NCBI GenBank assembly: GCA_964016885.1
Contig: OZ024740.1
Span: forward strand, 436,542,001-436,606,000
Length of the DNA stretch: 64,000 nucleotides
Direction: 5' to 3'
DNA from: Eledone cirrhosa
Taxonomy: Eukaryota
Part shown: one piece after another, positions 4,339-32,391 of the stretch
Layout: each line of letters begins with the position of its first letter
Position numbering within the stretch: the first letter of the stretch is position 1
The notes under the pieces: generated by a model
Told to the model about the DNA's origin: nothing
The model's input: the letters and a program-made list of their open reading frames with translations, nothing else
Database searches by the model: none
Position numbers and translations under genes: made by a program

Positions 4339-5208
4339 CTACTACATCTGACTAACAAACTATCCTCTTGCATTATCTGTGTTAACTGCCGAATGTATTT
4401 TAATTTTGTTTTAATTTTAATTTTGATTTTGATCTTGAATTTGAATTTCTATACAGAAATAATATAGTATAATATATGTCACCCCACTGTACATCAATAT
4501 ATATATATGTATCTGTATTTTTCTTGAGTTGGAAAGGAGGTCAATTATGTGTACAAACATTGAAAAATGCTCCGAAGATTCCAAGCCTAGGTTTGGATGA
4601 AACAATTGTAAGTGAATAAATGCTTTAAACATAACTTTGATTCTTGTGAATTCTATATATATATATGTATGTATGTACATACAAACTTTCTAAGTATTTG
4701 ACTCTAACCATTATTTTCAGTATTACCACCTCACAGTAATTACTCAATTTGTATGTGTGGATGTGTGTGTCTGTGTCTGTGGGGGTGGGTGTGAGTGTAT
4801 GTGCAAGTCAACCTACATAAGTCTTTTTATTTGTAAATTTTCTAGTATTCTACTCTAACCATAATTTTCAGTAGTACCACTCCACATAAATTCCTCAATT
4901 TAAGAATGACCTGTAGTATCGAATTTCATACTATTAACCTCAATTGAATATATATCTGACCAGGAATGCTTTTTGTGAAAATCAGTCATATGGAACTATT
5001 GTCATCTTGCCTAACGGTTTGAACTTTACAACACCACCTGCCTCTTTGAGGTCAAATACCAACCTTACTAGCATCTACAAACTGACCAATGAGAATTAAG
5101 ACTATTCCTACTGACAACATTAAATTATTCCTAACAAGCTCATATGTCCCAAGGCTCTGATACCATCAACACCATAAACACAGAGCTGGCATATCTAAGA
5201 ACTGACTA

Positions 5209-5264
5209 ACTGCCTGATGAGGTCATAGCCATTTAATGGCTAACATCGAAATATATATAGCAGT
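5209..5264 (+). ncRNA. Type I minimal hammerhead ribozyme (Penelope pLTR type)
   Basis: actgc-CTGATGA-ggtcatagccat(tta)atggctaacatc-GAAA-tatata-TA-gcagt: 5-bp stem I, intact core, palindromic stem III. AATAAA follows at once, then (TA)n at 5310. Confidence 0.85.
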
Positions 5265-5334
5265 AAATAAAGGATTATGAGTTCATGCAATTGACTTATC
5301 TTTCGTCACTATATATATATATATATATATATAC

Positions 5335-5838
5335 ATGTCCTGCGTCTCCAATAGACCAGCGTCTGTCCTTAGGGCATCAACATACGTTAACCTTGGTCTT
5401 CCTCTTCCAGTGTGTCCATGTAGGGGCTCCCACGGGAGCACTGAGTGCAATGTCAACTCTGGATGTCGGTGAGCATGTCCAGCTAACCTCAGTCTCCTCT
5501 GTATCACTTTTGAGGTGACTTTTGGGATGCTCCCATACAGCTCTGAGTTTTCATCTTCAGTGTATACTGATTAATGTTCAGAGCCATCCTCAGCATTCTC
5601 GTATAGCACCCATCCACCATCTGAGTGAGTTTCTTGGTCAGTGTCCAAGTCTCAGACCCGTACAGCAGCACAGACTCCACTACAGCAATGAAGATGCGGA
5701 TTTTCAGGTCTTTACGAAGGTCCGACTTCCACACCGATCTCAAGCTCTGGCACGCCACCCATGGCAGCGATAATGAGGGACAGAGACCGGTGGAGAGAAC
5801 TCGTCCATGGATCTCGGGAATTTTACCCGCCCTAGAAA
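5335..5838. mobile_element. RTE-type LINE 3' fragment with a 5' inversion
   Basis: Minus 5335-5755 encodes [49 protein letters not shown]. Plus 5760-5835 continues [18 protein letters not shown]-like atatatacatgt at 5327-5338 and 5839-5850. Confidence 0.85.
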
Positions 5839-5894
5839 ATATATACATGTGCATTTATATATATATATATATATATATCTACATGTACATACGT

Positions 5895-5925
<31 letters not shown>

Positions 5926-5930
5926 CATAC

Positions 5931-5984
<54 letters not shown>

Positions 5985-5992
<8 letters not shown>

Positions 5993-7204
5993 TATAAAGC
6001 TGACGGCCGTATGTAGGTAACAAACTTTACGCCAAGAGGCTGGACCAAACAGCACCAAATTTGCACCATAGATGTAACTTTTTCCAAGTAAGAAGGTGAG
6101 GGTATTTTTGTCTACTGAATTTTGTTAAAAGATTAAATACATTATTTAAATATTCACTTCTTTAAAATTTAAAATGTCAACACTTCCGGTTATACGACAT
6201 TCCTAACGTCTTCACGAACCAAAGTATCGTCTTCCTGTTTTCTTTCGGTTGCAACGTTTTTCGAAATATTTACTTCTACGTTCACAGATTGATTTTTTTA
6301 GTTTCAGAAGATCCCGTTAAGAGTGAAAGCAGCGATTCTTTGCTTAAACTTTAATCTGTTATTTTAATATATATATATATATAATTATATATTCGTGTAC
6401 AGATATTTTAGCATACACAAAAACGATATATAAACAAATGTATTTATTTCTCGAAAGCACAGACGGCTTATCGTCATTGTTACTGCCGATATGCCACCCA
6501 AAAAGTCCTAGCCTGGCCGCAAGATCAGATTTTCCAGAAGAAAAAATGTTACTAGAGCAACAGAGAGACTAAGCTTCGCGATTTCCATCAACAAAGATAA
6601 AGAAGGAAGAGGAGAGGAAGGAGAGAAGCAGAAAATAAATCTACAATGAAAGAACATCTTAAAGTTTATCCAAGGCAAATGTTGTATTTATTAACATTTA
6701 AATCTGCAGGTTCTTAGCAATCTTGTTGGCGCTTTAGTATGGTATTCAATTCTCATATCGCTTTTGATTGATATGGTGCATATATCGCAGCTATTCATAT
6801 GTTTTATAAAAGAGAGATGTTTGTTGGTTGGTTCCTTCGCGTATCACACGAAAAAAAACAAAAGTGACAATCGGAAAGTATGTACAGGATTGGGATAAGA
6901 GTATATCCAGGAAAATTTATTGATACTAATTTTATAACACCAAAGAAGAAGAAAGATATACCAGGTATGCTAACCAGCCTGACTGCTATTTCTAGCAGGT
7001 TGGGAATCAACCATAAGGGATTCTCTCTGCGAGTTCGTTGTCAGTGATAATCGTGTTTCGAGGCCTATGTCTCCGATTCCAACGGTGGTTTACACACACA
7101 CACACGCGCACACGCACACACACGAACACTCACACAGGAACACACACACACACATATATATATACACACATATATATACACTCACACACACACACACACG
7201 AACA

Positions 7205-7240
<36 letters not shown>

Positions 7241-7345
7241 ACACACTGTAAACAAGACAATGCATTCAATACAGACGTTTTCTCTTCTGCCGGTCTTCTC
7301 TTATCATTTGTTAACCTTGGCGAAGCTGGCTGGGTACCTCAGCTA

Positions 7346-7346
<1 letters not shown>
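5985..7346 (+). mobile_element. Non-autonomous Helitron
   Basis: The 5' end tatactataaagctg resembles the 5' end at 35716. The 3' end has a GC-rich degenerate hairpin (ccttggcgaagctggctggg) then CTAG|T. No TSD; sits in (TA)n. Confidence 0.6.
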
Positions 7347-7427
<81 letters not shown>

Positions 7428-8199
7428 TTGTGTATCAAGTAAATATCTTAAATAACCTCCTATTTGACAGATGAAATGACTGCCTCTTCTTACTCCCGTC
7501 TCTTTCTTAGTTTTTTAACCAATGTTTTTTATTTGTTTTTATTTGCTTTTGTTTCTTTTATGTTTTCTGTTGTATTTCTTTCCATTTACACCACAGATAT
7601 GAACTAAGTTGTCTCCCCATTCAACTCAGTATCAAGTATCAGTAGTGATAAACCATTTGCTCCAGGCAGTCATTAAACGTGTCTTATCAATACATGTCTT
7701 GGCCTTCAGAAAGATTCTGCCAAGCAACGTTTCCATGTTAAAACATCGTTAACATTATTGATTATGTTCTAATTTCAAGGGTATAGGAAAAGTGATAAAA
7801 ATGCCGTTTGTCATCGATCTGCAATATCACTGTTGCTATCACAGAAAATAAGGTGGGAAATTATTGTTCTAAGTACATTCCTATCTATAAAAACAATAGT
7901 AAAACACTGTATAGGTAATGACAACGAAAAAATAATGATTATCACGTTGATAATATTAATTATCGTAATTATTATTTCTTTTTCTCTTCCACGGGGCAAT
8001 GGGTGAGGGAAACGTTACAAAGTGAAATTACAAACCTGATGGCGGGGGTTAACCCAGCATCGATTATGGAAATCCCTGGTGTGGGAAACAAAAGTATACA
8101 ACACGTATGAAATGAAGCGTCTCAATAGAGGTGAAGGAGAGCCAGTTGTGGCCCTTGTGATTAAGTATGAAATACAGCAGATTACCATGACAACTACAA

Positions 8200-8780
8200 G
8201 AAAGTATCATCTCATATCTGTGTTCTCTGCTCTAGAAACATATGCTGGAAGTAGGCCAACATACTCCTGCCATTCTCGTAACCCTCACCCACCTTTCAGC
8301 AAATTCACTGAAGGGAAACACATCTCTCCAGCAGCCTCTTCCTCTCCAAGTGCAACTTGGCGATATTGATGAGAGCTTGCCGAAGAGAAAACTTTGTGTT
8401 CAGTCCTTTCCACCATATAGGGGGCCGACTGGTAATTCCAGTCAAAAGAAAGTGGTGTGGTTCTCCTCACGTAGGACGAATCTGATAGCTGAATCCGTCA
8501 TACATGCGACTATAACTGCTCGACATCACATCATAAGTCAACAGTTCTCGGACAATGAACGAGTGTATACAGAATAGTTTCGTAGCCCTCCATGCAGCTG
8601 TTCGCTTGATCCTCGCCGATGAGTAATATGTCCCCTGAGAATGTCATTACATTATTTCCCATTTAAATAATGCAAGGTTTTACTTAGGCTGGCTGCTTTG
8701 CCTGACATGTACCGAACTATGAACGTCCCACATTCCAAGTGACCAATGCTGGTGTTCGCGTCACACGAGATTGCAGACAA
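8200..8780 (-). mobile_element. Possible highly decayed RTE endonuclease region
   Basis: Only fragmentary motifs in different frames (LVTWNVG; GYENGRSMLAYF). Confidence 0.25.
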
Positions 8781-9177
8781 ACTGCAGAAAATATAGCAGA
8801 GGTAGTAACAACAAGTACAACAATAGGTTCCAGGGTTGAGGACCATGACTGTTATAACCCCTTCTTCTAGAGTACTACCTGTTGTAACTCAGGAAATAGA
8901 GAGAGCGAAAGCAAAACAAATCCCCCCGTCTTTAGTATCCTCATCCCCAGGGTCTGAGAAGTTAAGGCACCGAGAAACAAGGTGTCCTTTCCTCCAGACT
9001 GATGAGATCCAATGAGTTAGCTGTGATGGAGTTGAGATGGAAACAAGAGAATGTTGCGAAATATCTCTTGCTCCAAATATCATTAATGTAATATTTCGTA
9101 TCTCAGAATGTGGATACTGTCGTAATATTTTGTATTTTTCTACCTAGTCTTACACCAAGTTTACAATATTATTACCT

Positions 9178-9303
9178 TTACGATCTGAGTTCAAATCCCG
9201 TCGAGGTTAACTTTGCCTTTCATCCTTACGGGGTCGATAAAATAAAGTACCAGTAATGTACTGGGTAATTGCTGGCCTTGTGCCTAAAGTAGAAACAATT
9301 ATT
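9178..9303 (+). mobile_element. tRNA-derived SINE fragment with Meta-like core
   Basis: B-box gagttcaaatccc followed by ctttgcctttcatccttacggggtcgataaaataaagtaccag. Homologous to 33418-33548 (-) and 11805-11918 (+). Confidence 0.8.
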
Positions 9304-9987
9304 ACCTTATATAATACTGGGATAGCTATGTTGTTGGTGGCTCACACTTCTTTCTTCTTCATTTTAAAGAAGAAAAACCCCCAAAAGTTTACTATTTAGC
9401 CTTGTTGTGATTCACAACAATGGAAGGAATATTATAGACGAATTATTCCTTCCTAACAGATCCTTTCGTTCATTTGTATTGTACTCTGTCTAGTTCGTTA
9501 TTTCCTATGTATTTATAAACCTGTGTTTCGGCTAATATTCTGATAACTCTTTCTTTATCTAACATTATATAACAGTATTCATAATTAATTTCCCTCTTTT
9601 CGGGGTTTCCTTAGCGTATATCTCATTAATTTCTTTTGTAAATCTGTGTATTTTCTGCAATGGTGTTTCTATATTTAACCAGCAACAATAATCAACCCGA
9701 GGGAAACCATGTAAACAAGATGGCTGATTGTTCTCCTATAACCCAAAGTTAAGAGGAGAATACGTACTCGAAGTTTGATACATAAAAATATCCATAAAAT
9801 GGAACGTTCAAAAGCCTATATCGCCAGAAACAAATAAGACGAGGCCCTGAAAAATAAAAACATTAATAACCTAAATCAACTTTATTTTTCATTTAAAAAC
9901 AGGCTTCGATTCCAGTCAAGTAGCGAAGCTGAGAAGATTCATTCTTAAAATAAAATTGAAAAAATAAACATAAAAATGAACACAAAA

Positions 9988-10397
9988 TACACTTGAGTCT
10001 CGAATAATCGACCCCCCCCCCCATTCCCCCTTTATTTATTTTTCAGATTTTTTCCACATCCCATCCACCTCCGCTCATATTCCACCCCACCACCACCAGC
10101 TTATTATTTGTGCTAATCTATCTCCGACGAAATTTTATTTTAAGTGGTAGCACTCCTGCGACAATTGTCTTTATATATATATAAAAAAACATTATACATG
10201 ATAAAAAAAAGTGCATTACAAGAAATCTCATACGGTATAAAATAAATAGGATTAATTGGGATCTCAATATGTAAACTAAACGACTAATTCTGTTTTTTTT
10301 TTAATCAATAGAGACAACCTAGGAAAGTTAGCGAATCTCCACCACCACCTACCAGCCTCTTATTCCAAACCCCTCTATTATTTGGGACCCGAGAGTA
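9988..10397. mobile_element. MITE-like element with degenerate terminal inverted repeats
   Basis: Left tacacttgagtctcgaataat vs reverse complement of the right end tactctcgggtcccaaataat (16/21 identical). TA at both ends; non-coding. Confidence 0.5.
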
Positions 10398-11918: not shown

Positions 11919-14895
11919 TTGATATCAATACGACACCCCCAGTTCACCAGTAGCTGTAGTAGATATCAATACGACACCCCAGTTCACCAGTAGCTGTAGT
12001 TGATATCAATACGACACCCCAGTTCACCAGTAGCTGTAGTTGATATCAATACGACACCCCCAGTTCACCAGTAGCTGTAGTTGATATCAATACGACACCC
12101 CAGTTCACCAGTAGCTGTAGTAGATGTCAATACGACATCCCAGTTCACCAATAGCTGTAGTAGATATCAATACGACACCCCCAGTTCACCGGTAGCTGTA
12201 GTTGATATCAATACGACACTCCAGTTCACCAGTAGCTGTAGTAGATGTCAATACGACACCCCCAGTTCACCAGTAGCTGTAGTTGATATCAATACGACAC
12301 CCCAGTTCACCAATAGCTGTAGTTGATATCAATACGACACCCCCAGTTCACCAGTAGCTGTAGTTGATATCAATACGACACCCCAGTTCACCAGTAGCTG
12401 TAGTTGATATCAATACGACACCCCAGTTCACCAGTAGCTGTAGTTGATATCAATACGACACCCCCAGTTCACCAGTAGCTGTAGTTGATGTCAATACGAC
12501 ACCCCCAGTTCACCAATAGCTGTAGTAGATGTCAATACGACACCCCAGTTCACCAGTAGCTGTAGTAGATATCAATACGACACCCCCAGTTCACCAATAG
12601 CTGTAGTTGATGTCAATACGACACCCCCAGTTCACCAATAGCTGTAGTAGATGTCAATACGACACCCCAGTTCACCAGTAGCTGTAGTAGATGTCAATAC
12701 GACACTCCAGTTCACCAATAGCTGTAGTTGATATCAATACGACACCCCAGTTCACCAATAGCTGTAGTAGATATCAATACGACACCCCCAGTTCACCAGT
12801 AGCTGTAGTAGATGTCAATACGACACCCCCAGTTCACCAGTAGCTGTAGTAGATGTCAATACGACACCCCCAGTTCACCAATAGCTGTAGTAGATATCAA
12901 TACGACACCCCCAGTTCACCAGTAGCTGTAGTAGATGTCAATACGACACTCCAGTTCACCAGTAGCTGTAGTTGATATCAATACGACACCCCCAGTTCAC
13001 CAGTAGCTGTAGTTGATATCAATACGACACCCCAGTTCACCAATAGCTGTAGTAGATATCAATACGACACCCCCAGTTCACCAGTAGCTGTAGTAGATGT
13101 CAATACGACACTCCAGTTCACCAGTAGCTGTAGTTGATATCAATACGACACCCCCAGTTCACCAATAGCTGTAGTTGATATCAATACGACACCCCCAGTT
13201 CACCAGTAGCTGTAGTTGATATCAATACGACACCCCCAGTTCACCAGTAGGTGTAGTTGATATCAATACGACACCCCCAGTTCACCAATAGCTGTAGTTG
13301 ATATCAATGCGACACCCCCAGTTCACCAGTAGCTGTAGTAGATGTCAATACGACACCCCAGTTCACCAGTAGCTGTAGTAGATGTCAATACGACACAACC
13401 AGTTCACCAGTAGCTGTAGTTGATATCAATACGACACAACCAGTTCACCAGTAGCTGTAGTAGATATCAATACAACACCCCCAGTTCACCAGTAGCTGTA
13501 GTTGATATCAATACGACACCCCAGTTCACCAATAGCTGTAGTAGATATCAATACGACACCCCCAGTTCACCAGTAGCTGTAGTTGATATCAATACGACAC
13601 AACCAGTTCACCAGTAGCTGTAGTAGATGTCAATACGACACCCCAGTTCACCAGTAGCTGTAGTAGATGTCAATACGACACCCCAGTTCACCAGTAGCTG
13701 TAGTAGATGTCAATACGACACCCCAGTTCACCAATAGCTGTAGTAGATGTCAATACGACACCCCAGTTCACCAGTAGCTGTAGTAGATGTCAATACGACA
13801 CCCCAGTTCACCAATAGCTGTAGTAGATATCAATACGACACCCCCAGTTCACCAGTAGCTGTAGTAGATGTCAATACGACACCCCAGTTCACCAATAGCT
13901 GTAGTTGATATCAATACGACACCCCCAGTTCACCAGTAGCTGTAGTAGATGTCAATACGACACCCCAGTTCACCAGTAGCTGTAGTAAATGTCAATACGA
14001 CACCCCCAGTTCACCAGTAGCTGTAGTAGATGTCAATACGACACTCCAGTTCACCAATAGCTGTAGTAGATATCAATACGACACCCCCAGTTCACCAGTA
14101 GCTGTAGTAGATGTCAATACGACACCCCAGTTCACCAATAGCTGTAGTTGATATCAATACGACACCCCCAGTTCACCAGTAGCTGTAGTAGATGTCAATA
14201 CGACACCCCAGTTCACCAGTAGCTGTAGTAGATGTCAATACGACACCCCAGTTCACCAGTAGCTGTAGTAGATGTCAATACGACACTCCTAGTTCACCAG
14301 TAGCTGTAGTTGATATCAATACGACACCCCCGGTTCACCAGTAGCTGTAGTTTCTCACTTCAATACTACACCCCCAGTTCACCAGTAGCTGTAGTTTCTG
14401 ACTTCAATACTACACCCCCAGTTCACCAGTAGCTGTAGTTTCTCACTTCAATACGACACCCCCAGTTCACCAGTAGCTGTAGTTTCTCACTTCAATACGA
14501 TACCCCCAGTTCACCAGTAGCTGTAGTTTCTCACTTCAATACGATACCCCCAGTTCACCAGTAGCTATAGTTTCTCACTTCAATACGATACCCCCAGTTC
14601 ACCAGTAGCTGTAGTTTCTCACTTCAATACGATACCCCCAGTTCACCAGTAGCTGTAGTTTCTCACTTCAATACGACACCCCCAGTTCACCAGTAGCTGT
14701 AGTTTCTCACTTCAATACGATACCCCCAGTTCACCAGTAGCTGTAGTTTCTCACTTCAATACGACACCCCCAGTTCACCAGTAGCTGTAGTTTCTCACTT
14801 CAATACGACACCCCCAGTTCACCAGTAGCTGTAGTTTCTCACTTCAATACGACACCCCCAGTTCACCAGTAGCTGTAGTTTCTCACTTCAATACT
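11919..14895. repeat. 40/41-bp minisatellite, ~73 copies
   Basis: Unit gat(a/g)tcaatacgacacccc(c)agttcacca(g/a)tagctgtagt(t/a). The last ~13 units, from ~14351, carry tttctcacttcaat. Confidence 0.97.
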
Positions 14896-18414: not shown

Positions 18415-19048
18415 GATTTAAAATAAATATTTTACATGAAAAGAGAAACAAAATTAAATAATGAAAAACGGTGTGGGTTAGGGTCAGATTCTACACCCCT
18501 GTTTAGGCAGTATATCACAGCGGGGCCCTCTCTATAAAATAGTAACGGCATTGATTTGAAGAACAGCCAAGGACACCTGCTGCATCAGTCTTTACATTTC
18601 AAGGGGCTCCTTCCTTAGCTGGGCTACTCCTGATTTTATGGAAGAAAATGCAGGTTCGAAGGCAGAGGGTACCAAAGATCTCGATGTCAGCCGGCGCGAA
18701 AAATAAACGGTTGGTCACGTCTGATTGGTCGGAAGTTTTTAACAGAATTTCTGCTGATGATGATTCTACTACTACAACTACAAATAATAATATTAATAAT
18801 AATTCTTTCTTTATTAACCACAAGGGTTTACATAAAGTAGACATTAAGGACAGTACAGGACAATACAGGACGGTACAAATGAGCATTTCTGCGTGTAAAA
18901 AAAAACAGAGGATGTAATAAAAAATAACAATGAAAAGTTCCCCAATAGAGGGGAGATTTCCGAGGGACATTTGTGGAGAAAGCCCATTAAAAGGCCAGTG
19001 ACCCTGACCACCAGGGAAAGCGCCCTCTCCCAGTTTTCCACCTTTAAT

Positions 19049-22000
19049 TTACAGACACATACTCAGAGAAGGCCCATTCACTCGGGCCATACTTGTTCTC
19101 TCACCCATCTTTCAAGTAAATACTGGGAAGAGAGCACTTCCCTCTCTACCCTGATTTTCCTTTTCAAATGAAATTTGAAAAAGTCAATCAGGGCATCACC
19201 GAAGAGGTAAGTGCTCGTCTTCAGCCCTTTCAAACGTGTCCACCATACTATCTCTTTCGCCATGGCCACCAGACAGATAAAAACTTCCTGCCCTTCCCGG
19301 CTAAAGGAAGAAGGCGGGGCAATCCTCACGATGGACTCAGCTGATAGCTGGATCCGTCCTACACGTGACAGCAGGTGTTCGACATAAACCCACAAGTCAG
19401 CAATGCTCGGACACTGGACGAGTGCGTGCAGGACGGTTTCATCGCCCTGCGCGCATCTCGGACATGCCCGGCTGACGGCACCTCAATGCCTGTAGAGTTT
19501 ATCCCGAACTGGCAAAGCTCCTCAGTAGCACTGCCAGGCCAGGGATTTCTGGAAGTTGTCCATAGGCCCCGGCCCGAAAGTCCTTCCGAAGAGATTGGCT
19601 AGTTGATTTTCGTCGACGCCTAGAGTTTCTCCAAGTACGTCGTCGCTCTTCCCCTCCACTAATCCCCGCCTGACTGCTCCAGCGCAGTCAGGCGGGGCTT
19701 AGGACAAGGTACGGCGGTCAGGCGGTAGTAGATGACAGACGCGATGTACGCGTTAGCCACCTCCGCTCGACCTTTCAGGGATAGCTTCCTCTCCACCCAT
19801 TTCTGGGTGAGAGAAGCCACCCTGCTCGTCACCTCGTCCCAGTTTTTGTCCGTCTGGAGGTCCGGACCGAACGAGACCCCTAGCAATTCAACTGGTCCGT
19901 CCGTCCAGCGCCCGACGCCGCTGTTGGACGGCATGGACCTGCCTCTCCAGGTACCGAGATGCAGGCCCACTGACTTTTCCTGGTTGATCATTGCTCCGGT
20001 CACCGCTTCGTATTCTCTGAGTGTAGTGCCGATCGCCTCGATGTGTTTGGCGTTCGAGACCACTACGGTGACTTCGTCCGCATATGCTGACACGGATCTT
20101 CCGCATCCTAGTTCGCGCGGGACTCCCCTCAACGTCTCCAGTTCGTGCAGTAATGGCTCGAGAGTCAATGCGTACAAGAGGGACGAGAGGGGACATCCTT
20201 GGCGGACCGAGCGCATGATGTTGAACGGTTCCGAAAGGTGACCGTTCACTCTCACCACAGAGCAGATGTCGGTGTGCATAGCAGCAATCCAGCCTCTGAA
20301 GACGGGCCCAAAGTCAGCCGCCCTCAGGTCTGCCGCTAGGTAACGATGGTCGACCCTATCGAAAGCTTTTGACTGATCTAAATTGATCAAGGACCCACCC
20401 GTGCCAGGTTCCCTAGCTACCCTCTCTACGATGTATCGCATGAGGTGGAGGTTGTCGTGGAAGGATCTGTCGGGAATGGCGCATGTCTGCGCCTCTCCCA
20501 CCAGACAACCAACGACAAGCGCCAAGCTCTTTGCTAGCACCTTGGCCAAAATCTTGAACTCTGTGTTTAGCAGAGTTATGGGCCTGAAATTATCTATGTT
20601 ATCTCCCTTGTTCAGATCCTTTCTCAGCAGCGCCACAGCTACTCGGCTCACAGAGCTGGGAATTCTCCCGTTCTGTTGCCAGTTGCAGTAGACGTCCGCC
20701 AAGAGACCTCCGAACAAGTCTGGCATCTGTACGTAAAGTTCATAGGGCAGACCATCCAAACCAGGCGATTTACCCCTTGTGCAGCCAGTCATTGCCTCCC
20801 GTACTTCAGCGGCTGTTATCGGCTTTTCGCAACACTCCGCCTCAGTGGCCGAGAGCCGCGGCAGTCCGTCGAGGTAGACACTAAAGTCCATCCCTCGATT
20901 CAGCCCGCCGCTGCCCCCGAACAGTTGGGCGAAGTGTCGCTGGAAATCTTCACACATTTGCCCGGGATCGAGTAGCATGCGCCCGTCGTGGTCCACCAAA
21001 GACCGGATCGTGGCTTTGTTGCCACGACGCGCCTCCGCCACTCGGGCCCATTGAACGGCTTTCGTCCCCTCGTGTCTGAGAGCAGGCACCCTAGCTCTGA
21101 CAACGCAGCCTTCGTGCTTTGCATTGAAGAATTGGTCAAGGGCCAATTTCGCCGCAAGCACGTCGGTCGCGATGCCTTTGCTAAGCGCCGCGTCTAATTT
21201 TCTAACTAGTTCTCCCTCTGCTCTATTTTTATCTATTGCTAAAGCCTTACTAAACCTAATGGATTCTATTCTAATCGCTCTTTTCAGAGCAAACCACCAC
21301 TTGTTGTTGACAATGGCCCCCGTCAATGCCCGCTTAACTAGTTCGCTAATCTGGTCTCTGTAGGCCTTGCGCGCTGGTAAGGACGCGTTTAGCTTCCAGT
21401 AGCCGGGTCCTCGTCTATGAAGCCTATCTAAGTCAAGCACACAGATCACGAATTTGTGGTCCGTGTAGCTGACTATCTTGAATTGTGGTCAGCCTATGCT
21501 AGACCTATCTATTTCCCTACAAAATATTCTATCTAGATATCATCTGGATGACCCTTACGATTTGTCCAAGTCCACATTGGCACATTCGGGAAATCCAATC
21601 GGTACCTGCCAGACAGTTCAAAACGCCTGAGCAGGTTGGTGAGGCTCTTGCACCCTCCACCCCTATCCGCTAATCCCACACAGTCCCAGCGTGCATCTAA
21701 GATCCCGTTCCAGTCGCCCACTAAAACTAAAGAGCGGGACGTTCCAAGAAAGGTCTCCAGACGCCGGTAGAAATCAGGCCGCCCTGCTCCTGTCGGGGCA
21801 TAGACGGCCACTAGCCTGAAAGCTTGCCCGTCTCCGCTGGTCACGTCCAGCACCACCAACTTACCTTCTGGGTCCAGGAAGATGGCCCGTATGGCGAGAT
21901 CCAAACCTCTCCGAAAAAGCACAGCAACTCCTCCCCCGATCCAGGACGGCTGGGTGATGCGGCGTACACATCGTAGCCGCCGAAGATCGGTGCAAAGGCC

Positions 22001-22137
22001 CGAGTTTCGGAGATTCTGGTCTCGCTGATGGCCACTACATCTATATTTAGTAACCTGAGGTCGTTGAGCAGGTGGCCCTGCTTCCATGACCACCCCAAGC
22101 CACGCGCATTTATGCTGCCTATTCTGAGTGATGTCAT
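19049..22137 (-). pseudogene. Tx1 ORF2 (APE endonuclease, reverse transcriptase, C-terminal zinc finger)
   Basis: GSINARGL, ISET, AVYAP, LVGDWN, YLDRIF, TDH, GPGYWKLNAS, KSPGLDGLP, FRPITLLNTEFKILAK, DQSKAFDRVDH, VRQGCPLS, YADE (mutated YADD), CPRC..ETVLHAL..C. Several frameshifts and an internal deletion at ~19665. Confidence 0.93.
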
Positions 22138-22171
22138 GTTGAAATGGAGTGGAAAAGATGGGAAAGACCAC

Positions 22172-24096
22172 TTACCTTACTTCTCGTAGAGGAAGGATGG
22201 TTTGTCCATCCTTTTCACTGCTTGTGGCCTCCTCCGGAAGGATGTCCTTATAAATCCTCCTGGAGAGTGCTTGTCGGAAGTCTCCGATGTCTTTGGGGAA
22301 TTTTTGTTTTAGTGTCGTGTACGTTTTCTGTGTGATGCGACTGATTTGTAAGTGTGGAGGTGGTCTGAACTTTTGGGTTGTTGTGTAGTCTTTTTCTGTG
22401 ATGCTGGTGTTGTGTTGGATGTAGTGTAATAATTGGTTGTTCAAATTTAATGCTGTGTAGTGTGTATCGTTTTGGTTGTTTTGTTTTGTTTGCGTTTGTT
22501 GTGGGTTTGTTTCTGCTTCGCTTTTTGGTGACTTTTGTGGTGTTGGGGTTAATGATGGTGATGGTGTTGGTGTTTGTGGTGATGGGGTTGGTGATGCTGG
22601 TGCGGATGGTGGCATATCTGTCCTAACTTTTTTGTTTGATAGTTTATTTGTTTCCCTCTGTATTTTATTTTTGGAGGGGGAGGGAAGAGAATTTTTTCTT
22701 TTTTGGTTTCTTTTTTTCTTTTTTCCTGATACCGTTTCCCACTCCTCGTCGTCACAATCTGTCTCCAGTTGTGATAGGCCGGGGAGTGGAAAATCCTCCA
22801 CAGGCGTTGGTTTTGGTTGTGGCGTGGAGGATGGTGTAGGCGCTGGTGCTAGTTATGGCACGTTGTGTGGTGGTGGTGTTAGTTTTGGTACTGTTGCTGG
22901 GGTTGTTGCTGTTACAGTTGCTTCTGTTGTTGCTGCTACAGTTGTTGCTGCCATCTCTGCTGCTGGTGGTGTTGATGGTTGAGTCACTGGAGTGGGTAAG
23001 AGAGGTGGCCTCAACCTTTTAGCCTGAGGGCAGAAAGCCCTTAGGTGGGTTCCTTCACCACAAACGACACACCTAGGCCTTCTGCCCTCGACGATTACGG
23101 TGAGGTGGCTGCCGTCAGTGAGGTCTATTACCTCTGGGATCTCCTCAATGCTTTTTTGGTCCGCTTGGATCAGGAGCTCCATCCCAGATCCGGACCAGTT
23201 CTCCTGCTTTTCTTTCGCTATTTCGATTATCTTGGTGTTGGCTTCGATGCCGGCGAGGACGGCAGCTATTAGCCAGGGAATTTCGATGGCCGGTGGAACG
23301 TGGGTCACCCTGATCTTCACGAGTCTCTGGCCACAATAGCTTGGGACGAGTGTGAAGTCGTCACTTCTGAATGGCCTATGGAGTGTTCTCTGGCCTCCTG
23401 TGGTGTTTCAAAGAACACGTCCACGGTTCCATATTCCTGCCCACGTCTGATGTGGGTTTTTTTTTGCCCACACATGTCCCAAAGCTTTTTGGATTTGGGA
23501 CTCGGATGCCCGTTCCACTCGGCGCGATTTTATGTTAATCGTCCGATAAGACACGGTGCATAGGCGCCGATGATCCATTTTATTAGGTGGGGGCGGGTGA
23601 GGCTGACCCTGTACCCATCTTTCTTTACCATTTTTTTTGGCTCCTTCTAATTCCGCCTGAGTTACCTGGAATGCTTCGCACTGTTTTGCTACTCTGGCAA
23701 AATTCAGGGTGGTTTTCTTAATGTCATTGTTGCTGTTGTTTTTATAGTTATTTTTGTTATTGTTAATTTTAGTTTCAGTTGTGGTGGTGGTGGCATCAGT
23801 TGTGTTCGGTGTGGAAGAGTTCATTTTGGTTGAATTCATTTCGATATCACGAGTTAATTTATTTTTTCTTTTGTTTCTGTTGTCGCTGTGGTGGTGGTGG
23901 GGGTGGCGGCTTTAACATCTGCAGTCATTGGTAATGGCGGGAAATGAATGTCTGCCTGAGACAAATTTAAAATATTGCTACTGCTTATATTTTTAGTGTT
24001 GGCAAACGTAGTAATATTTACAATGATGGTGTCGGTGTGAGGTGTTAGTTTGTGAGGAAGGCTCTCAGCTACTGGGTTCAGCTGTGAGTCGGCCAT
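22172..24096 (-). pseudogene. Tx1 ORF1 (nucleic-acid-binding, CCHC knuckle)
   Basis: Collinear broken ORFs 24096-23854, 23839-23408, 23320-22853 (KIRVTHVPP..VEGRRPRCVVCGEGTHLRAFCP) and 22801-22172 (EWETVSGKKKKR, P/T/Q-rich), directly upstream of ORF2. Confidence 0.8.
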
Positions 24097-24313
24097 GATT
24101 TTTCAAAGAAATATTTTTTTGTTTGATAATTATAAAAAGTTTAAATTTTGTGCTCAAGGCCCCAATCTTTTTGAGTGTCCTTTTCAGAAATCAATGTATG
24201 TGCACTTATATACAGTTAACAATAAAAAATTTCCATAAATGGCAATTTTAAACAACTGAAAATAACAAACCTTTGCGGAACTCACGATAATACGATTTAC
24301 TACGTAGGTCGCC

Positions 24314-25445
24314 AATAATAATAATAATAATAATAATACTTTCTTTATTAACCACAATGGTTTACATAAAGTAGATATTAAGGACAGTACAGGACAATAC
24401 AGGACGGTACAAATGAGCATTTCTGCGTGTAAAAACAAAAACAGAGGATGTAATAAAAAATAACAATGAAAAATTCCCCAATAGGGGGGAGACATCGGAG
24501 GGACATTTGTGGAGAAAGCCCATTAAAAGGCCACAGTAACCCTGACTACCAGGGCAAGTGCCCTCTCCCAGTTTTCCACCTTTAATTTACAGACACAAAC
24601 TCAGAGTAGGCCCATTCACTCGGGCCATTCTTGCTTCTCTCACCCATCTTTCAACAAAATGCTGGGAAGAGAGCACTTCCCTCTCTACCCTGATTTTCCT
24701 TTTCAAATGAAATTTGAAAAAGTCAATCAGGGCATCACCGAAGAGGTAAGTGCTCGTCTTCAGCCCTTTCAAACGTGTCCACCATACTATCTCTTTCGCC
24801 ATGGCCACCAGACAGATAAAAACTGCCTGCCCTTCCCGGCTAAAGGAAGAAGGCGGGGCAATCCTCACGATGGACTCAGCTGATAGTTGGATCCGTCCTA
24901 CACGTGACAGCAGGTGTTCGACATAAACCCACAAGTCAGCAATTCTCGGACACTGGACGAGTGCGTGCAGGACGGTTTCGTCGCCCTGCGCGCATCTCGG
25001 ACATGCCTGGTTGACGGCACCTCCATGCCTGTAGAGTTTATCCCGAACTGGCAAGACTCCTCGGTAGCACTGCCAGGCCAGGGATTTCTGGAAGTTGTCC
25101 ATAGGCCTCGGCCCGAAAGTCCTTCCGAAAGAGATTGGGTAGTTGATTTTCGTCGAGGCCTAGAGTTTCCCCCAAGTACGTCGTCGCTCTTCCCCTCCAC
25201 TAATCCTCTATAGAACGCCGAGGTGGAGTTTCCACCGATCACATTGCCCGATTGGTCGAGGGCTGTGAGCGCCTGAAGACATTCCTGTCTCCAAGCGCTC
25301 CCTCTCGGTCTTCGCTTGACCCAGGACTGCAGCTCCGTCAAGGAAACGAGCTGGGGAAAGACGAGTCTATCAAACGGCGACCACACCTGATCACCGTCGA
25401 GGAAGAGGTGGAGATGTCGTAGACAGTACGCCAGGCGATCGCAGG
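24314..25445 (-). mobile_element. 5'-truncated second copy of the same Tx1 family
   Basis: Highly similar to 18800-19665 (MDNFQKSLAWQCYRG..CPRCAQGDETVLHALVQCP..). (ATT)n tail at 24314-24337. Retains sequence deleted in copy 1. Confidence 0.93.
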
Positions 25446-25462
25446 GTTAAACCTCCAGTTAT

Positions 25463-25600: not shown

Positions 25601-25639
25601 CTTCTACAGTCGTTGAAGCTGAAGTATATATATTTTCTT

Positions 25640-26460: not shown

Positions 26461-26699
26461 CTGCATATACACATGTACAGATACAAAGCATATGGACATG
26501 TACACATGCAACTCAAAACATACACATCCACACATACAACAACATCCATACCTACACATGCATGCAAGCAGACATACATACATATCTACCTAGTTGATGT
26601 GTCAATTACAATGAGAGAGTTTTGTGTCTATGTTAGAAACCGACTCTCTCTCTCTCTATTGGCAAACATTTGTAAAATTATAAAACCAGAACATACATA

Positions 26700-26985
26700 C
26701 TTACATACTTACATGGTGGCTGCCAACTCGTTTTCGAGTACGGCCACTACTTTATATCCATGAACGAGTGTGGCTTTTTAGTCCAGCCAGCGACTTGAAA
26801 ACTCTGGTACAAACACTACACTTGTGACAATTATTGACACCTAGTGCTGGGCCCATGGTACCATGTGACCCAAGGTGTCGTGTGAGATCACTACTCGACC
26901 TGCATACCCTTCCACAAACATTACATGTCGTCGTCTGATGAACACTTATAGCTCCACGGGTGCCTGCTTGCCTGTTCTTGTGCAC
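26700..26985 (-). mobile_element. RTE-like LINE 3' end with two C2H2 zinc fingers
   Basis: CNVCGRVCRSSSDLTRHLGSH and CSVCTRVFKSLAGLKSHTRS, a short 3' UTR, then a (TAAG/TATG)n tail. Confidence 0.65.
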
Positions 26986-27017
26986 ATACTTACATACATA
27001 CATACTTACATACATAC

Positions 27018-27048
<31 letters not shown>

Positions 27049-27599
27049 CATACATACATACATACATACATACAAATTTGTGAAATTATAAAACATACAT
27101 ATATACATACATACATATACATACATATATACATATACACATACATACACTTGCCTTACTGTCTGTCTGTGTATGTGTTGTGTCAGGTCGCTCTTCGGCG
27201 CTATTGGTAACATGTAACCCAGTACAACCTGTGCAAATTCGGATCGTCGGTGACTAAACTGGCAACCCCACTAAGATTGCTTGATGTGGGGGTTGATTTT
27301 GGGACACCCTGCGGAATGAAAAACAAAACCCGTTAAAGGGTGGAAGAGCTCAGGAGGGTCAACGGCCATCCAATAAAGGTCTTCTTTTTAAGGTTTTTTT
27401 TTTGTAGAGCGAGAGACCCTAGTCTTCATTAAGACATCTCTCTCTCTAGGAGAGGGGTCATTCTGATATAAAACCTGCGACTTCATTTGCATCCAATGAT
27501 GTTGATCAGTTCTTCTTTTGGGGTAAAGTATTCGATGTTCAGAGAATGGGATTGACCCCATACAAATCCTTTCCTCACTTAAAGAAGCTTCAATAACAG

Positions 27600-27750
27600 G
27601 CATCACTTGATGTGTGACATCTTTTTACGATGCGTGGCATGGCTGGCCAAAGGCAAGTCCCTAGCAGGACTAGGAAGCCACGCCCGTGATGCTCATGCTT
27701 AAGTATCAAGCGATGGCATTACTCAAAATCGAGTTGCAGCCATCATGTGT
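27600..27750 (+). mobile_element. Related RTE-like 3' end
   Basis: CDIFLRC..KSLAGLGSHARDAH*. The UTR tggcattactcaaaatcgagttgcagccatcatg matches the minus-strand UTR at ~26712-26747. Confidence 0.55.
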
Positions 27751-28005
27751 GTATATATACTTGTGTATATATACCTGTGTATATATACACAGGTATATAT
27801 ATATATACAGGTATATATACACAGGTATATATACCTGTATATATATATACCTGTGTATGTAGTGACAGAAAACAAAATATTATTTGAATATGTTTGTTTT
27901 TTTAATCTTACGGAAGACAATCTCTGGACATGTTTCACTCTCATTAGAAATATTCTGTAAACTTGTAGACTCGCCACTATATCTGACCGAGGTATGAGCG
28001 ATCAA

Positions 28006-28036
<31 letters not shown>

Positions 28037-28160
28037 CGGTAAATATTGATACAATTCAATTCAAGCACTCAACGTACTTTTTCCACATAGGAATGACGGA
28101 GTATTTTTAGAATAGAAAAAACGAAATAGTTTCAGATTTTAAAGTCCTTTATTGATAATG

Positions 28161-28233
28161 CTGTGGTACATATTTCAATGACGACAGTGGCCACACGATT
28201 ACGCTTAACCAGTGCCATGATCTTATCAGACAG
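28161..28233 (-). ncRNA. Degenerate type I hammerhead ribozyme
   Basis: ctgt-CTGATAA-gatcatggcactggtta..tggccactgtcgtcatt-GAAA-tatgta-CC-acag, then AATAAA (28148-28153). Two core mutations. Confidence 0.6.
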
Positions 28234-29057
28234 TTTCTTATATAATAAGGTTACGTTCTCGAGGCAATCCAAATTAAAACGACAAGGGAACGGACAAAGA
28301 TGATTTTCTTGAAGCCTTCGTCCGTTCCCTTGTGAGCCCTAATTTCCCACCACAGTTTTGCGCAGGCACAAATGTGAAGGAAGTTTACCATCTAACTACT
28401 ACCCAAAACCCAACGAAAGTAGCCTAGGCATCCCCCCAACCAATCTCCCCCGACCAATAAGGTGACACAGTCACGGGATTCACGCCAGGCGGTAAGTTAT
28501 AGTTTACTGCTGGTCCCACGTGTCCAGCAGTAGCCAACCAAAACTTTATGCTAAAGTATAAGTTTCAATACTACCCCTAATTATGTTTTGACAATAGAAT
28601 TGACCATCACCCGCGAAGAGAATATTATCTTAATTCTCGGGTCTAGATATGGTTTCACAATGGAAATGAAAATTGGTAATACGATTGAAAATTAGAAATA
28701 AAAAGTTAAAATCTTGATTGAGGTTAATAAAAAAAAAAATAATAAATAGGAGGATGTATAAATTATAGTTAAAAATTATGAAAAGGGGATCAATATTAGA
28801 TATTACAGATATATTATCCATATATTGAACGGTAGTACAGTAACGAAGAACGGAATATAAATTTAAAGTATAGAACGTAATAATTAAACAAACAATTAGT
28901 TAATATCTTCTATCACAAGAATCAAAACAAAAAATACATTATTACAAAATGAGAGAGAAAAAAATATATATGAGAAAAAGATAAAGTATAAATATATATA
29001 TATATAATTATAAAATAACAGGAGGCTGGACTGGTGTAAATCCTTGAAAGGTTTATT

Positions 29058-29115
29058 ATATTATGATCATTTCAATGACCGGGTTTGGTATGAATCCGGT
29101 GATATCATCAGGTAT
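29058..29115 (-). ncRNA. Type I hammerhead ribozyme (one stem I mismatch)
   Basis: atac-CTGATGA-tatcaccgg..ccggtcatt-GAAA-tgatca-TA-atat-AATAAA. Confidence 0.7.
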
Positions 29116-32100
29116 TCGAAATATAACAAAGGAATATAACAGATAAAATCCATGGGGCTGAAAATCAGAGACAAGAGGACGACCGACTATTTAGCAGCTT
29201 CTACCTCAGTCGGTCGCCCTCGAGTGTTGATTATTAAGTCTGCTTATGACCATCTGGTGAGAGGGGCTAAGCTTATAATGTGCTACTAACTCACCCTCAA
29301 AAAGAAAAGGTCATGCCACAATCAGGCTGACCGTGCGTGCTAGAAATTGCCGCGAAAAATGTTTTTTCCAAAGCACATATATCTTTAACAAAGGCATATA
29401 TAGTGGGCGTCTGTATGGTATAATGTGTGGACAGAAATTTCGGTTAGCAATTAGGAACGTTAAACTTATGTTTAGAGTTATAGGATGAAATTAGAAAAAT
29501 AAGAGAAATAAGGTTTAAGGTTTGGGTTGTGAGATTTAGTTAAAGAATTTACAGACAGAGTCTTTTATGAAAAAGTTTAAGTATATTATAGATAGTCTCG
29601 ATAAGTTTTCAGGGTAGGATATAGAGTAAAGATTAAGCCCTTGTTTAGCAGTCAATAATCAGCGACGACTGCAGATCCCGGCTAGCCCTTCCTAACCACG
29701 TGTCAGCCGTTCCGAGTAATATCGTCTAGCGAAAGAAATGGAAATTAATTTTTCCGAGCACTCCAGGAATGTAACTGTCTTAGGCGTCGGGTGTGTTAGC
29801 GGGAAGTCCGCCATCGCCGTCAGGCCATCGTCTATACCAAACGAATACTATTAATTAACACAGGAGGGGGATTTATTTACGTGCCAGTAGAGGGAGGCAT
29901 GATACAGCTAATAGTTATGATTAAGCCTAGAAATTTAAAGGTACTATTTAGCAGCCAAAACCGGCGGCGCGGCGGGCCCCGGGGCGAAGCAGCCGTTCCG
30001 AGTAATTTCGTTTACCGAAAGAAGGGGAAATTTGTTTTTCCAAGCACTCAAGGAAGGCTCAACCATCCGGGCGCCCGGCGCGCAGCGGGGAAAAGCCGCC
30101 ACATCTGTCGGATCATCGCGTGTTACCAAACGATTATTATATATTCACACCCGTGATGTGAGGTTGAAAGTGGTAAAACCCGATGAAATGCGCAAAAAGA
30201 CTATATTTAGTCCCCAGTTAGTCCGGGTATAGGTAGTGTGGTTCTTAGGTGGGTAGGGGGAGTGAATAAAGATAAACGGGTATAAGGGTACAGAGAGTAA
30301 TATTCTAGTGTCGTGTGCTAATGAGCACAATAAGTATATAATGAGAGTAAAGCGAGTAAATAGATACCTAAATAAAAGGAACAATAAGCAAAATACATAA
30401 ATAAAAAGCAGAGTACAAAAATAAAAATAAAAATGCATAAATAAAAATACATAAATAGAACGCCGTCATAGGTAGGGTGGTGATGGAGTAAAACGGAAGT
30501 ATATAAGAACATATCGGAGAAATCAAAACACAGGGGAAATACAATATAAATCAAGGTGCAGTTAGATAATACAAGGTTATACATATAGATATAGAGGATG
30601 GAAGAGATGGAATGGTATCAGGTGATACCTAGTGTATGTTCGAGTCTCAGAATTCAAAGTGAATCACAAAGGCCCTGAAGTATAGGGTAGAGAATTCAGT
30701 CAATACAGTACAGGTAATAGTAGAATTATGTCGGAGTCTGGATATTCCCGACAGGGAAGCAGCAGTGGACCAGGTGGGAGGTAGACAAAGCACAGAGCAG
30801 CCAAAATTCGAATGGTGTGTAGATTAGTTAGTCCCATGCTGACAAGAGCTGTACACTGGAGTCAGTGCCGCTGTTCATTATTACATCTGAAAGCGCTCAA
30901 CATTTCTGGAGCATTATTTATTTAGGTTAGTTGGTTTACCTCTGGATAAAGTGGGGCATTCCGTATGGTCAATCTCGATGTAATATTATGGAGAGTACTT
31001 AACGTAATGCAACTCACCCGTCTTCGTTTGTGAAGTTGGTGGTGCGAGAACGGAGTTAATTATTATAAAATAACAGGAGGCTGGACTAGTGTAAAACCTG
31101 ATATCACGGGTGTGAATATATAATAATCGTTTGGTAACACGCGATGATCCGACAGATGTGGCGGCTTTTCCCCGCTGCGCGCCGAGCGCCCGGATGGTTG
31201 AGCCTTCCTTGAGTGCTTGGAAAAACAAATTTCCCCTTCTTTCGGTAAACGAAATTACTCGGAACGGTTGCTTCGCCCCGGGGCCCGCCGCGCCGCCGGT
31301 TTTGGCTGCTAAATAGTACCTTTAAATTTCTAGGCTTAATCATAACTATTAGCTGTATCATGCCTCCCTCTACTGGCACGTAAATAAATCCCCCTCCTGT
31401 GTTAATTAATAGTATTCGTTTGGTATAGACGATGGCCTGACGGTGATGGCGGACTTCCCGCTAACACACCCGACGCCTAAGACAGTTACATTCCTGGAGT
31501 GCTCGGAAAAATTAATTTCCATTTCTTTCGCTAGACGATATTACTCGGAACGGCTGACACGTGGTTAGGAAGGGCTAGCCGGGATCTGCAGTCGTCGCTG
31601 ATTATTGACTGCTAAACAAGGGCTTAATCTTTACTCTATATCCTACCCTGAAAACTTATCGAGACTATCTATAATATACTTAAACTTTTTCATAAAAGAC
31701 TCTGTCTGTAAATTCTTTAACTAAATCTCACAACCCAAACCTTAAACCTTATTTCTCTTATTTTTCTAATTTCATCCTATAACTCTAAACATAAGTTTAA
31801 CGTTCCTAATTGCTAACCGAAATTTCTGTCCACACATTATACCATACAGACGCCCACTATATATGCCTTTGTTAAAGATATATGTGCTTTGGAAAAAACA
31901 TTTTTCGCGGCAATTTCTAGCACGCACGGTCAGCCTGATTGTGGCATGACCTTTTCTCTTTGAGGGTGAGGTAGTAGCACATTATAAGCTTAGGCCCCTC
32001 TCACCAGATGGTCATAAGCAGACTTAATAATCAACACTCGAGGGCGACCGACTGAGGTAGAAGCTGCTAAATAGTCGGTCGTCCTCTTGTCTCTGATTTT

Positions 32101-32145
32101 CAGCCCCATGGATTTTATCTGTTATATTCCTTTGTTATATTTCGA

Positions 32146-32203
32146 ATACCTGATGATATCACCGGATTCATACCAAACCCGGTCATTGAAATGATCATAG
32201 TAT
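32146..32203 (+). ncRNA. Type I minimal hammerhead ribozyme
   Basis: atac-CTGATGA-tatcaccggattcataccaaacccggtcatt-GAAA-tgatca-TA-gtat: 4-bp stem I, palindromic stem III, AATAAA at 32204-32209. Confidence 0.82.
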
Positions 32204-32391
32204 AATAAACCTTTCAAGGATTTACACCAGTCCAGCCTCCTGTTATTTTATAATAATTAACTCGGTACTCGCACCACCAACTACACAAACGAAGACAGGT
32301 GAGTTGCATTGCGTTGAGTACTCTCCATAATATTATATCGAGATTGACCATACGGAATGACCAGTTCTATCCAGTGGTGAACCAACCAACC

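What the first reader, a model, noticed from the sequence alone, without database searches (positions are those of the whole stretch)
5140..32210. Three sequence-divergent hammerheads share one architecture: upstream hairpin, C-C mismatch in stem II, palindromic stem III, AATAAA
Seen: the ribozymes at 5209(+), 28161(-) and 29058(-)/32146(+) differ in stems I and II. Yet all have about three basal stem II pairs, then a C opposite C (ggtC..Catc; gatC..Catt; tatC..Catt), a T-N4-A stem III and AATAAA within ~10 nt. Hairpins lie 50-60 nt upstream at 28282-28333 (18 bp) and 29175-29221 (14 bp). Each has a single imperfection that is G-U on the ribozyme strand but A-C on the other strand. A weaker hairpin (5142-5194) precedes the 5209 copy. 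Inference: structure conserved at the RNA level, possibly a distinct hammerhead subtype with an RT-recognition or tertiary-contact module.
Basis: partly seen in the sequence, partly recalled or inferred. Interest (0 to 1): 0.72.

Follow-up and report, generated by a model that had tools for sequence, protein, structure and literature searches.

The report
Penelope hammerheads keeping an unpaired C
These hammerhead-ribozyme motifs are the end repeats of a known kind of jumping gene, present in about 88,000 copies in this animal genome; one lineage of them keeps an unpaired cytosine that is likely a contact point, whereas the upstream hairpin and the AATAAA are not special to that lineage.

Summary
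The four motifs, the two C's, the AATAAA and the hairpins are at the stated places, with corrections: the 28161 copy has two core substitutions (G8A, U16.1C), and family C opens stem II with U·U. They are type I hammerheads in the pseudo-LTRs of Hydra-clade Penelope-like elements: one protein-coding family (5209) and two in which no ORF was found. About 88,000 genome matches carry C·C (control 78). Across 28 sequence clusters the fourth step of stem II stays unpaired in 25 and has a 5' C in 26, while neighbouring pairs change together; 41 other hammerhead clusters and 26 published Hydra rows lack it. The palindromic stem III is the known dimer design. The upstream hairpin is strong in two families, weak at 5209 and not detectable in the largest families. 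AATAAA also follows hammerheads without C·C, and 0 of 219 copies end in poly(A). The likelier reverse-transcriptase signal lies downstream: copy ends fall in two tight clusters just before a duplicated RCTCC…GAGYGC motif. Cleavage is untested. The scan noted the C·C trait before, elsewhere in this genome (e1-8670794, e1-9970313). Verdict: new variant of a known kind.

The parts
4683..5310 (+). Family A: 5'-truncated 3' UTR/pseudo-LTR of a protein-coding Hydra-clade Penelope-like element, ending in (TA)n
   Evidence: 94% identical to longer copies; in 7 of 7 extended loci an RT/GIY-YIG ORF lies upstream on the same strand
5142..5194 (+). Weak upstream hairpin (7+7 bp, 21-nt AC-rich loop), homologous to a hairpin in sister family F4
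   Evidence: z -2.0; consensus fold with F4, 3 of 14 pairs changed on both sides
5210..5263 (+). Type I hammerhead A; C·C at 5224/5244; stem III TATATA; predicted cut after 5259
5266..5271 (+). AATAAA after hammerhead A
28037..28985 (-). Family B element, about 0.9-1 kb, no ORF found, flanked by (TA)n
28282..28333 (-). Upstream hairpin B, 18 bp with one G-U
   Evidence: family z -5.9
28161..28233 (-). Type I hammerhead B; C·C at 28219/28180; this copy has G8A and U16.1C and is likely inactive
28148..28153 (-). AATAAA after hammerhead B
28065..28102 (-). ACTCC...GAGTGC motif downstream of hammerhead B
29004..31099 (-). Family C: one full turn of a 2.06-2.08 kb unit without ORF (likely non-autonomous)
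29175..29221 (-). Upstream hairpin C, 14 bp with one G-U
   Evidence: family z -7.8; covariation among C subfamilies
29058..29115 (-). Type I hammerhead C; U·U at step 1, C·C at 29101/29077; stem III TGATCA; AATAAA at 29057-29052
30893..30912 (-). Second copy of the motif (GCTCC...GAGCGC in the family numbering) in the family C leader
31095..32394 (+). Family C: inverted, 5'-truncated second arm, ending in (TA)n
32040..32086 (+). Upstream hairpin C, second arm
32146..32203 (+). Type I hammerhead C, second arm; C·C at 32160/32184; AATAAA at 32204-32209
32260..32321 (+). First copy of the downstream motif (ACTCG...GAGTAC in this copy)

Best explanation
The motifs are type I hammerheads in the pseudo-LTRs of Hydra-clade Penelope-like retroelements, and one sub-lineage keeps an unpaired C at the fourth step of stem II that likely acts as a base-specific contact point in a ribozyme predicted to cut only slowly, as a dimer. 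Shown: host element, copy number, covariation around an unpaired C, palindromic stem III, the two clusters of copy ends, no poly(A) tails. Inferred chain: (1) tandem copies give a longer-than-unit transcript; (2) the 2-bp stem III is unstable alone, so two motifs pair through the 8-nt palindrome AU-N4-AU; (3) C10.4 sits where stem II would meet stem I in the folded ribozyme and would dock an RNA partner or the element's protein; (4) most RNA that is copied is uncut or re-joined; (5) the RT starts internally, just 5' of either of two RCTCC...GAGYGC motifs, 45-60 and 130-200 nt past the cut site, primed at (TA)n; (6) families B and C borrow the protein of coding families. AATAAA is likely the pseudo-LTR poly(A) signal, and the upstream hairpin is a variable accessory.
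For: Host: ORF upstream of hammerhead A in 7 of 7 extended loci; Hydra motifs RW[KR], DKT, CxCx5C, CxxC-E, CxH in intact ORFs of 847-894 aa (against PMC8557442 section 11); hammerhead 265 nt before the start codon in tandem copies. C: 5' C in 26 of 28 clusters and in 15 of 15 multi-copy clusters, unpaired in 25 of 28; positions 2, 3, 5-8 paired in 22-28 of 28, and at most 0.1% of 5000 shuffles reach the observed counts; other hammerheads paired in 35 of 41, C·C in 0. Genome counts with AATAAA: C..C 58,943, non-C 5' 3,027, C..non-C 2,620; C-G 302, and the first 100 listed look like scattered single variants (by eye). EN tree: 22 of 24 linked rows C·C in one group, 0 of 24 in the other. Dimer: stem III costs 2.7-4.5 kcal/mol in the monomer, self-duplex gains 2.2-10.5; dimer cleavage and low activity are published for PLE hammerheads (PMC4209133). 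Ends: e.g. family C 22 of 48 at +48-58 and 24 of 48 at +192-204, motifs at +60 and +204; 0 of 219 A-tails; internal initiation at two sites and protein-assisted cleavage are published for a Poseidon element (PMC11167929).
Against: No cleavage, structure or binding data. The clusters share ancestry, so they are not independent, and my sample was seeded by patterns that named C or non-C at these positions and was filtered for stem pairing. The partner is U or A in 6 of 28 clusters, so C·C itself is not invariant. No sequence partner for the C was found: AATAAA spacing varies 0-8 nt. The EN tree is a quick, midpoint-rooted tree without published proteins and has long-branch warnings and four doubtful links (L117, L265, L319, L325). 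Three or four of 18 family A copies begin at or just after the cut site, which could mean some cleaved template, but (TA)n microhomology explains it as well and family F4 shows none. The second motif copy was not evident in every family (B, F4).
Confidence: 0.6

Rival explanations
1. The mismatch is a brake: it only weakens stem II so that the ribozyme does not destroy the template too fast, and the identity of the base does not matter.
For: Closing the mismatch is computed to stabilise stem II by 3.8-6.7 kcal/mol in 8 examples; most copies that reach the hammerhead run through it (A 11 of 18, F4 7 of 10); C-G variants never form a visible family; partner base varies.
Against: A brake could use any mismatch, yet the 5' base is C in 15 of 15 multi-copy clusters and the position is fixed while flanking pairs turned over. 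The weak stem III and first pair already limit activity.
Confidence: 0.25
2. First reader's module: upstream hairpin, C·C, palindromic stem III and AATAAA act together as one RNA subtype, with the hairpin as RT-recognition or tertiary partner.
For: Hairpins are strong in B and C and show some two-sided changes; all three window families have one.
Against: No hairpin above shuffles in the AGG/AAG families (best z -1.6 to +0.1 in four clusters of 3 or more); distance to stem I ranges 15-65 nt; AATAAA and palindromes occur without C·C (window 4568-4620); copy ends map to a downstream motif. Many apparent long hairpins in other copies are fold-back junctions of inverted insertions.
Confidence: 0.1
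3. The C is kept for a reason outside the ribozyme (a promoter or DNA-binding site in the pseudo-LTR) or is an inherited accident.
For: Pseudo-LTRs hold promoters (PMC6765202 passages); the lineages share an ancestor.
Against: Bases on either side of both C's change freely but in pairs, which fits RNA structure rather than a DNA motif; endonucleases of the C·C families are only about 40% identical.
Confidence: 0.08

Closest known systems
Hammerheads of Hydra-clade Penelope-like elements (Craig et al. 2021, PMC8557442; seen: passages, section 11, supplement parts 1, 2, 52, 53)
   Same: Type I hammerhead near the 3' end of an RT + C-terminal endonuclease element with RWK, DKT, CxCx5C, CxxC and CxH motifs; (TA)n targets; inverted 5'-truncated copies; U·U at the first step of stem II in many rows.
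   Different: By eye, none of the 26 listed Hydra rows has C·C at step 4; their stem III is 3-4 bp with a 1-3 nt loop, not 2 bp plus a palindromic tetraloop. Elements here are about 4 kb with 1.1-1.9 kb 3' UTRs against under 3 kb, and very abundant.
Minimal PLE hammerheads (Cervera and De la Pena 2014, PMC4209133; seen: abstract, results, discussion, part of methods; figures and supplements not seen)
   Same: Short stem I, long stem II, small palindromic stem III, dimer model, high variability within one genome.
   Different: Their text describes an extra unpaired base before 10.1 and a conserved G10.1-C11.1; here G-C at step 1 occurs in 4 of 28 clusters and the conserved oddity is at step 4.
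Non-LTR retrozymes (PMC7229834, passages; bioRxiv 10.64898/2026.07.22.740005, parts 1-3 of 5)
   Same: Non-coding tandem units with a type I hammerhead, proposed to derive from PLE pseudo-LTRs; fits families B and C.
   Different: Family C's unit is 2.07 kb against 51-972 bp in that survey, and copies are dispersed, truncated and inverted like PLEs.
PAc, Poseidon element of Anolis (Frangieh et al. 2024, PMC11167929; seen: abstract, main text, part of methods)
   Same: Internal RT initiation at two sites downstream of the hammerhead, uncut RNA as template, AT-rich target.
   Different: Other clade; there the ORF starts inside the hammerhead, here 186-265 nt after it; the two end clusters here are 80-145 nt apart and each precedes a copy of a sequence motif.

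Membership tests
Type I hammerhead ribozyme | Core CUGANGA, GAAA, UH at a three-stem junction | tested here: met
   Met in A and both C copies and in the family B majority; not met in the window's B copy (G8A, U16.1C)
Type I hammerhead ribozyme | Stems I and II supported by covariation | tested here: met
Type I hammerhead ribozyme | Match to an Rfam hammerhead model at gathering score | tested here: not met
   0 matches in the window
Type I hammerhead ribozyme | Self-cleavage | not testable with these tools
   no assay; no RNA run listed
Dimer-type PLE hammerhead | Short palindromic stem III, unstable as monomer | tested here: met
   27 of 28 clusters palindromic allowing G·U; energies
Hydra-clade PLE (family A and sisters) | Single ORF, RT then C-terminal endonuclease, upstream of the hammerhead | tested here: met
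   Pfam gave no hit on five ORF pieces, so domain names rest on motifs
Hydra-clade PLE (family A and sisters) | RWK, DKT, CxCx5C linker, CxxC and CxH in the endonuclease | tested here: met
   L326, L334, L307 have all; family A has RWR in place of RWK
Hydra-clade PLE (family A and sisters) | Insertion into (TA)n; tandem and inverted pseudo-LTR structures | tested here: met
   123 of 219 ends run directly into TA repeats; inverted and tandem copies
Hydra-clade PLE (family A and sisters) | Generally shorter than 3 kb | tested here: not met
   unit about 4.1 kb; a typical trait, not a strict one
Hydra-clade PLE (family A and sisters) | Placement with published Hydra proteins in an RT tree; absence of the CCHH motif | not tested
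   tree holds only this genome's endonucleases
Non-autonomous PLE derivative / non-LTR retrozyme (families B, C) | No coding capacity, hammerhead in a repeated unit | tested here: met
   C: tandem 2.06-2.08 kb units, no tblastn hit to three Hydra ORFs below E 0.29; B: no ORF within the longest 0.9 kb copies, tandem form not seen
Non-autonomous PLE derivative / non-LTR retrozyme (families B, C) | Circular RNA intermediate | not testable with these tools
   no RNA data

The most novel reading that the evidence does not exclude
A Hydra sub-lineage has evolved its own hammerhead class in which an unpaired C10.4 is a specific docking site for the element's protein or the partner ribozyme, and all Hydra elements carry a duplicated RCTCC...GAGYGC RNA signal that fixes where the telomerase-like RT starts, which would be the first sequence-defined template-recognition signal for Penelope-like elements.
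Probability: 0.3. Interest if true: 0.65.

Novelty: new variant of a known kind. Interest (0 to 1): 0.42.

Why it matters
What hammerheads do in Penelope-like elements, and how their RT picks its start, are open questions (PMC8557442, PMC11167929). This genome offers tens of thousands of copies in many lineages that single out one testable base and one testable downstream motif. The ribozyme class, host element and dimer design are known, so the gain is a sharper experiment, not a new kind of system.

Tried and rejected
Rfam: no match. Pfam on five Hydra ORF pieces: no match. Sequencing runs: no RNA holder listed; no reads were laid. Metagenome and viral contigs: 116 and 120 pattern matches, of which 3 and 1 passed a loose stem filter, none convincing and none with a Hydra ORF; these collections hold little animal DNA, so spread in other animals is untested. 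Idea that AATAAA is locked in a downstream hairpin: paired in 8 of 23 clusters against 3.6 expected, significant only in family F4; not established. Idea that AATAAA pairs back as a distal stem I: seen by eye in B and C, not in A. First upstream-hairpin screen was confounded by fold-back junctions and was repeated with a filter (170 of 240 copies kept, clusters of one not shown). First alignments of the hairpins held non-homologous rows; searches use 6 hand-picked rows each, and the family B alignment was not repeated and shows little two-sided change. Pile-up of 5' ends at the cut site: weak in A, absent in F4. Lunse, Weinberg and Breaker 2017 (RNA Biol 14:1499), the largest survey of PLE hammerhead variants, is not held; I know it only from a review passage, and it, or the unseen figures and supplements of PMC4209133, may already show this variant. 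Paper searches for prior description: (0 papers). I did not identify the organism; octopus and cephalopod were guesses used as search terms.
Full report
Observation. The window lies in a 3.0 Gb animal genome. Four type I hammerhead folds are present at 5210-5263(+), 28233-28161(-), 29115-29058(-) and 32146-32203(+). All have C opposite C at the fourth step of stem II, a T-N4-A stem III and AATAAA 0-7 nt after stem I. The hairpins at 28333-28282 and 29221-29175 are as described, each with one G-U. Corrections: the 28161 copy has G8A and U16.1C, while its family majority is intact; family C starts stem II with U·U; the 5209 copy has an extra A·A; the two family C motifs are arms of one inverted insertion. 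Rfam reports nothing.

Host elements. The three motifs belong to three dispersed repeat families (1,229-3,320 first-look candidates each). Copies have ragged 5' ends and sharp 3' ends. For family A, 7 of 7 extended loci carry an RT/endonuclease ORF ending about 1.1 kb upstream on the same strand, and tandem copies place the hammerhead 265 nt before the start codon. Near-intact ORFs of family A (847 aa, L325) and its sister F4 (894 aa, L326) show RW[KR], DKT, CxCx5C, CxxC-E and CxH, the motifs given for the Hydra clade (PMC8557442 section 11). Further C·C families (AGG type) are also linked to Hydra ORFs 1.3-1.9 kb upstream. Family C is a 2.06-2.08 kb unit without a Hydra-like ORF, found in tandem and inverted form. 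Family B reaches about 0.9 kb without an ORF. Both are likely non-autonomous; that is inference.

The C·C step. Genome-wide, the core pattern with C at both positions has 87,974 matches (control 78). With AATAAA required, C..C gives 58,943 (control 1), non-C at the 5' position 3,027 (control 452) and C..non-C 2,620 (control 8), about 91% C..C. C-G gives 302, and the first 100 listed look like single variants of many families (by eye). Copy counts are dominated by a few families, so I clustered 327 hammerheads from fetched loci. Among 240 with T-N4-A stem III (28 clusters at 80%), step 4 is C·C in 18, C·A in 4, C·U in 2, paired in 3 and U·C in 1; the 5' base is C in all 15 multi-copy clusters. 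Steps 2, 3 and 5-8 pair in 22-28 of 28 with several pair types and exceed partner shuffles (at most 0.1% of 5000); step 1 does not (20 of 28, 29% of shuffles). Among 87 other hammerheads (41 clusters) step 4 is paired in 35 and never C·C. Limits: clusters are related, the sample was seeded by patterns naming these positions, and detection required some stem pairing. A quick endonuclease tree (79 rows, midpoint root, no published proteins) splits this genome's Hydra elements into two groups (SH-aLRT 99): 22 of 24 linked rows are C·C in one, 0 of 24 in the other, with four doubtful links. The 26 published Hydra hammerhead rows lack C·C by eye. The trait is therefore real, lineage-specific and most likely selected at the RNA level.

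Stem III. The palindrome is general: 27 of 28 clusters here and 28 of 30 even-length stems in the other group. Computed energies make the monomer stem III unfavourable by 2.7-4.5 kcal/mol and the 8-nt self-duplex favourable by 2.2-10.5. This is the dimer design described for PLE hammerheads, which cut weakly in vitro (PMC4209133; PMC3088659 passages, also note U·U at step 1 as tolerated).

Upstream hairpin. After removing fold-back junctions, best-of-nine-window z scores were -7.8 (C), -5.9 (B), -3.2 (F4), -2.0 (A) and -1.6 to +0.1 for four AGG/AAG clusters of 3 or more copies. A and F4 share a homologous hairpin (3 of 14 pairs changed on both sides), and C subfamilies keep theirs (3 of 17); rows were hand-picked. 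The hairpin is real in some families and is not part of a universal module.

AATAAA and copy ends. AATAAA follows 20 of 28 T-N4-A clusters and 16 of 41 others, at 0-8 nt from stem I. No copy ends in an A-run (0 of 219), and 123 run straight into TA repeats. Ends form two tight clusters past the cut site: C 22 of 48 at +48-58 and 24 at +192-204; AGG 30 of 49 at +46-53 and 18 at +135-139; F4 7 of 21 at +38-59 and 12 at +148-153; B 16 of 23 at +38-61 and 7 at +128-131; A 11 of 13 at +46-49; two further families gave no reference. The first cluster lies just before ACTCC...GAGTGC (motif start +55 to +63). In C and AGG the second lies just before a second copy, GCTCC...GAGCGC; in B and F4 a second copy was not evident in the reference. 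A Hydra family without C·C shows the same pattern (ends at +34 and +112, motif at +42), and similar paired motifs are visible by eye in the published Hydra-1_Ajap leader. This matches internal RT initiation at two sites on uncut RNA, shown for a Poseidon element (PMC11167929). Most long copies also run through the upstream hammerhead (A 11 of 18 distinct loci, F4 7 of 10, output partly cut), so the copied template is mostly uncut or re-joined.

Mechanism. Shown: element identity, covariation, the fixed C, end positions. Inferred: dimer cleavage, a base-specific contact by C10.4, RT recognition at the downstream motif, poly(A) role of AATAAA, borrowing of protein by B and C. I favour a contact over a pure brake because the 5' base stays C while its partner and neighbours vary. 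That the fourth step lies near the stem I/stem II contact zone is recalled hammerhead geometry, not tested here.

Novelty. Element class, ribozyme class and dimer design are known. I found no description of the C·C variant or the duplicated motif in nine paper searches, but could not read Lunse et al. 2017 or the figures of PMC4209133. The scan already reported the C·C trait on other pieces of this genome; my counts were made before that look-up and agree. A word search for the downstream motif in earlier notes returned nothing. Verdict: new variant of a known kind, interest 0.42.

Noticed in passing
   Followed up: partly
window 488-2444 (-), continuing into L170: A second, very abundant Hydra lineage (ORF broken by a TA run and frame changes). 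Its hammerhead lies about 1.25 kb downstream, outside the window, and is of the published type without C·C.
   Followed up: yes
window 29704-29861 and 29990-30150 (and inverted copies 31205-31556): Internal 160-bp duplication (73% identical) in the family C unit, each copy containing GAGTGCT; family A and F4 UTRs also hold short internal repeats.
   Followed up: no
window 18783-25206 (-): Decayed non-LTR retrotransposon with an ORF1 bearing a zinc knuckle, an endonuclease-RT ORF2 (Pfam RVT_1) and a duplicated 890-bp 3' end, 95.5% identical.
   Followed up: no
window 36939-63997: 27-kb satellite of an 18-bp unit with strong GC skew (about 0.7), running to the window end.
   Followed up: no
window 11919-14880: Tandem array of 72 copies of a 41-bp unit.
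   Followed up: no
L306:6833(+), L032:587(+) and relatives: A family with C·U at step 4, stem III TGCGCA and mostly no AATAAA, often as short head-to-head palindromes.
   Followed up: partly
L319:3565(-): Hammerhead with C·U at step 4 but stem III CATGTG, 280 nt before a Hydra ORF; suggests the unpaired C extends beyond the T-N4-A group.
   Followed up: no
many loci, e.g. L106, L128, L144, L185: Very short inverted insertions form perfect 60-80 bp fold-backs directly upstream of hammerheads and can be mistaken for conserved hairpins.
   Followed up: yes
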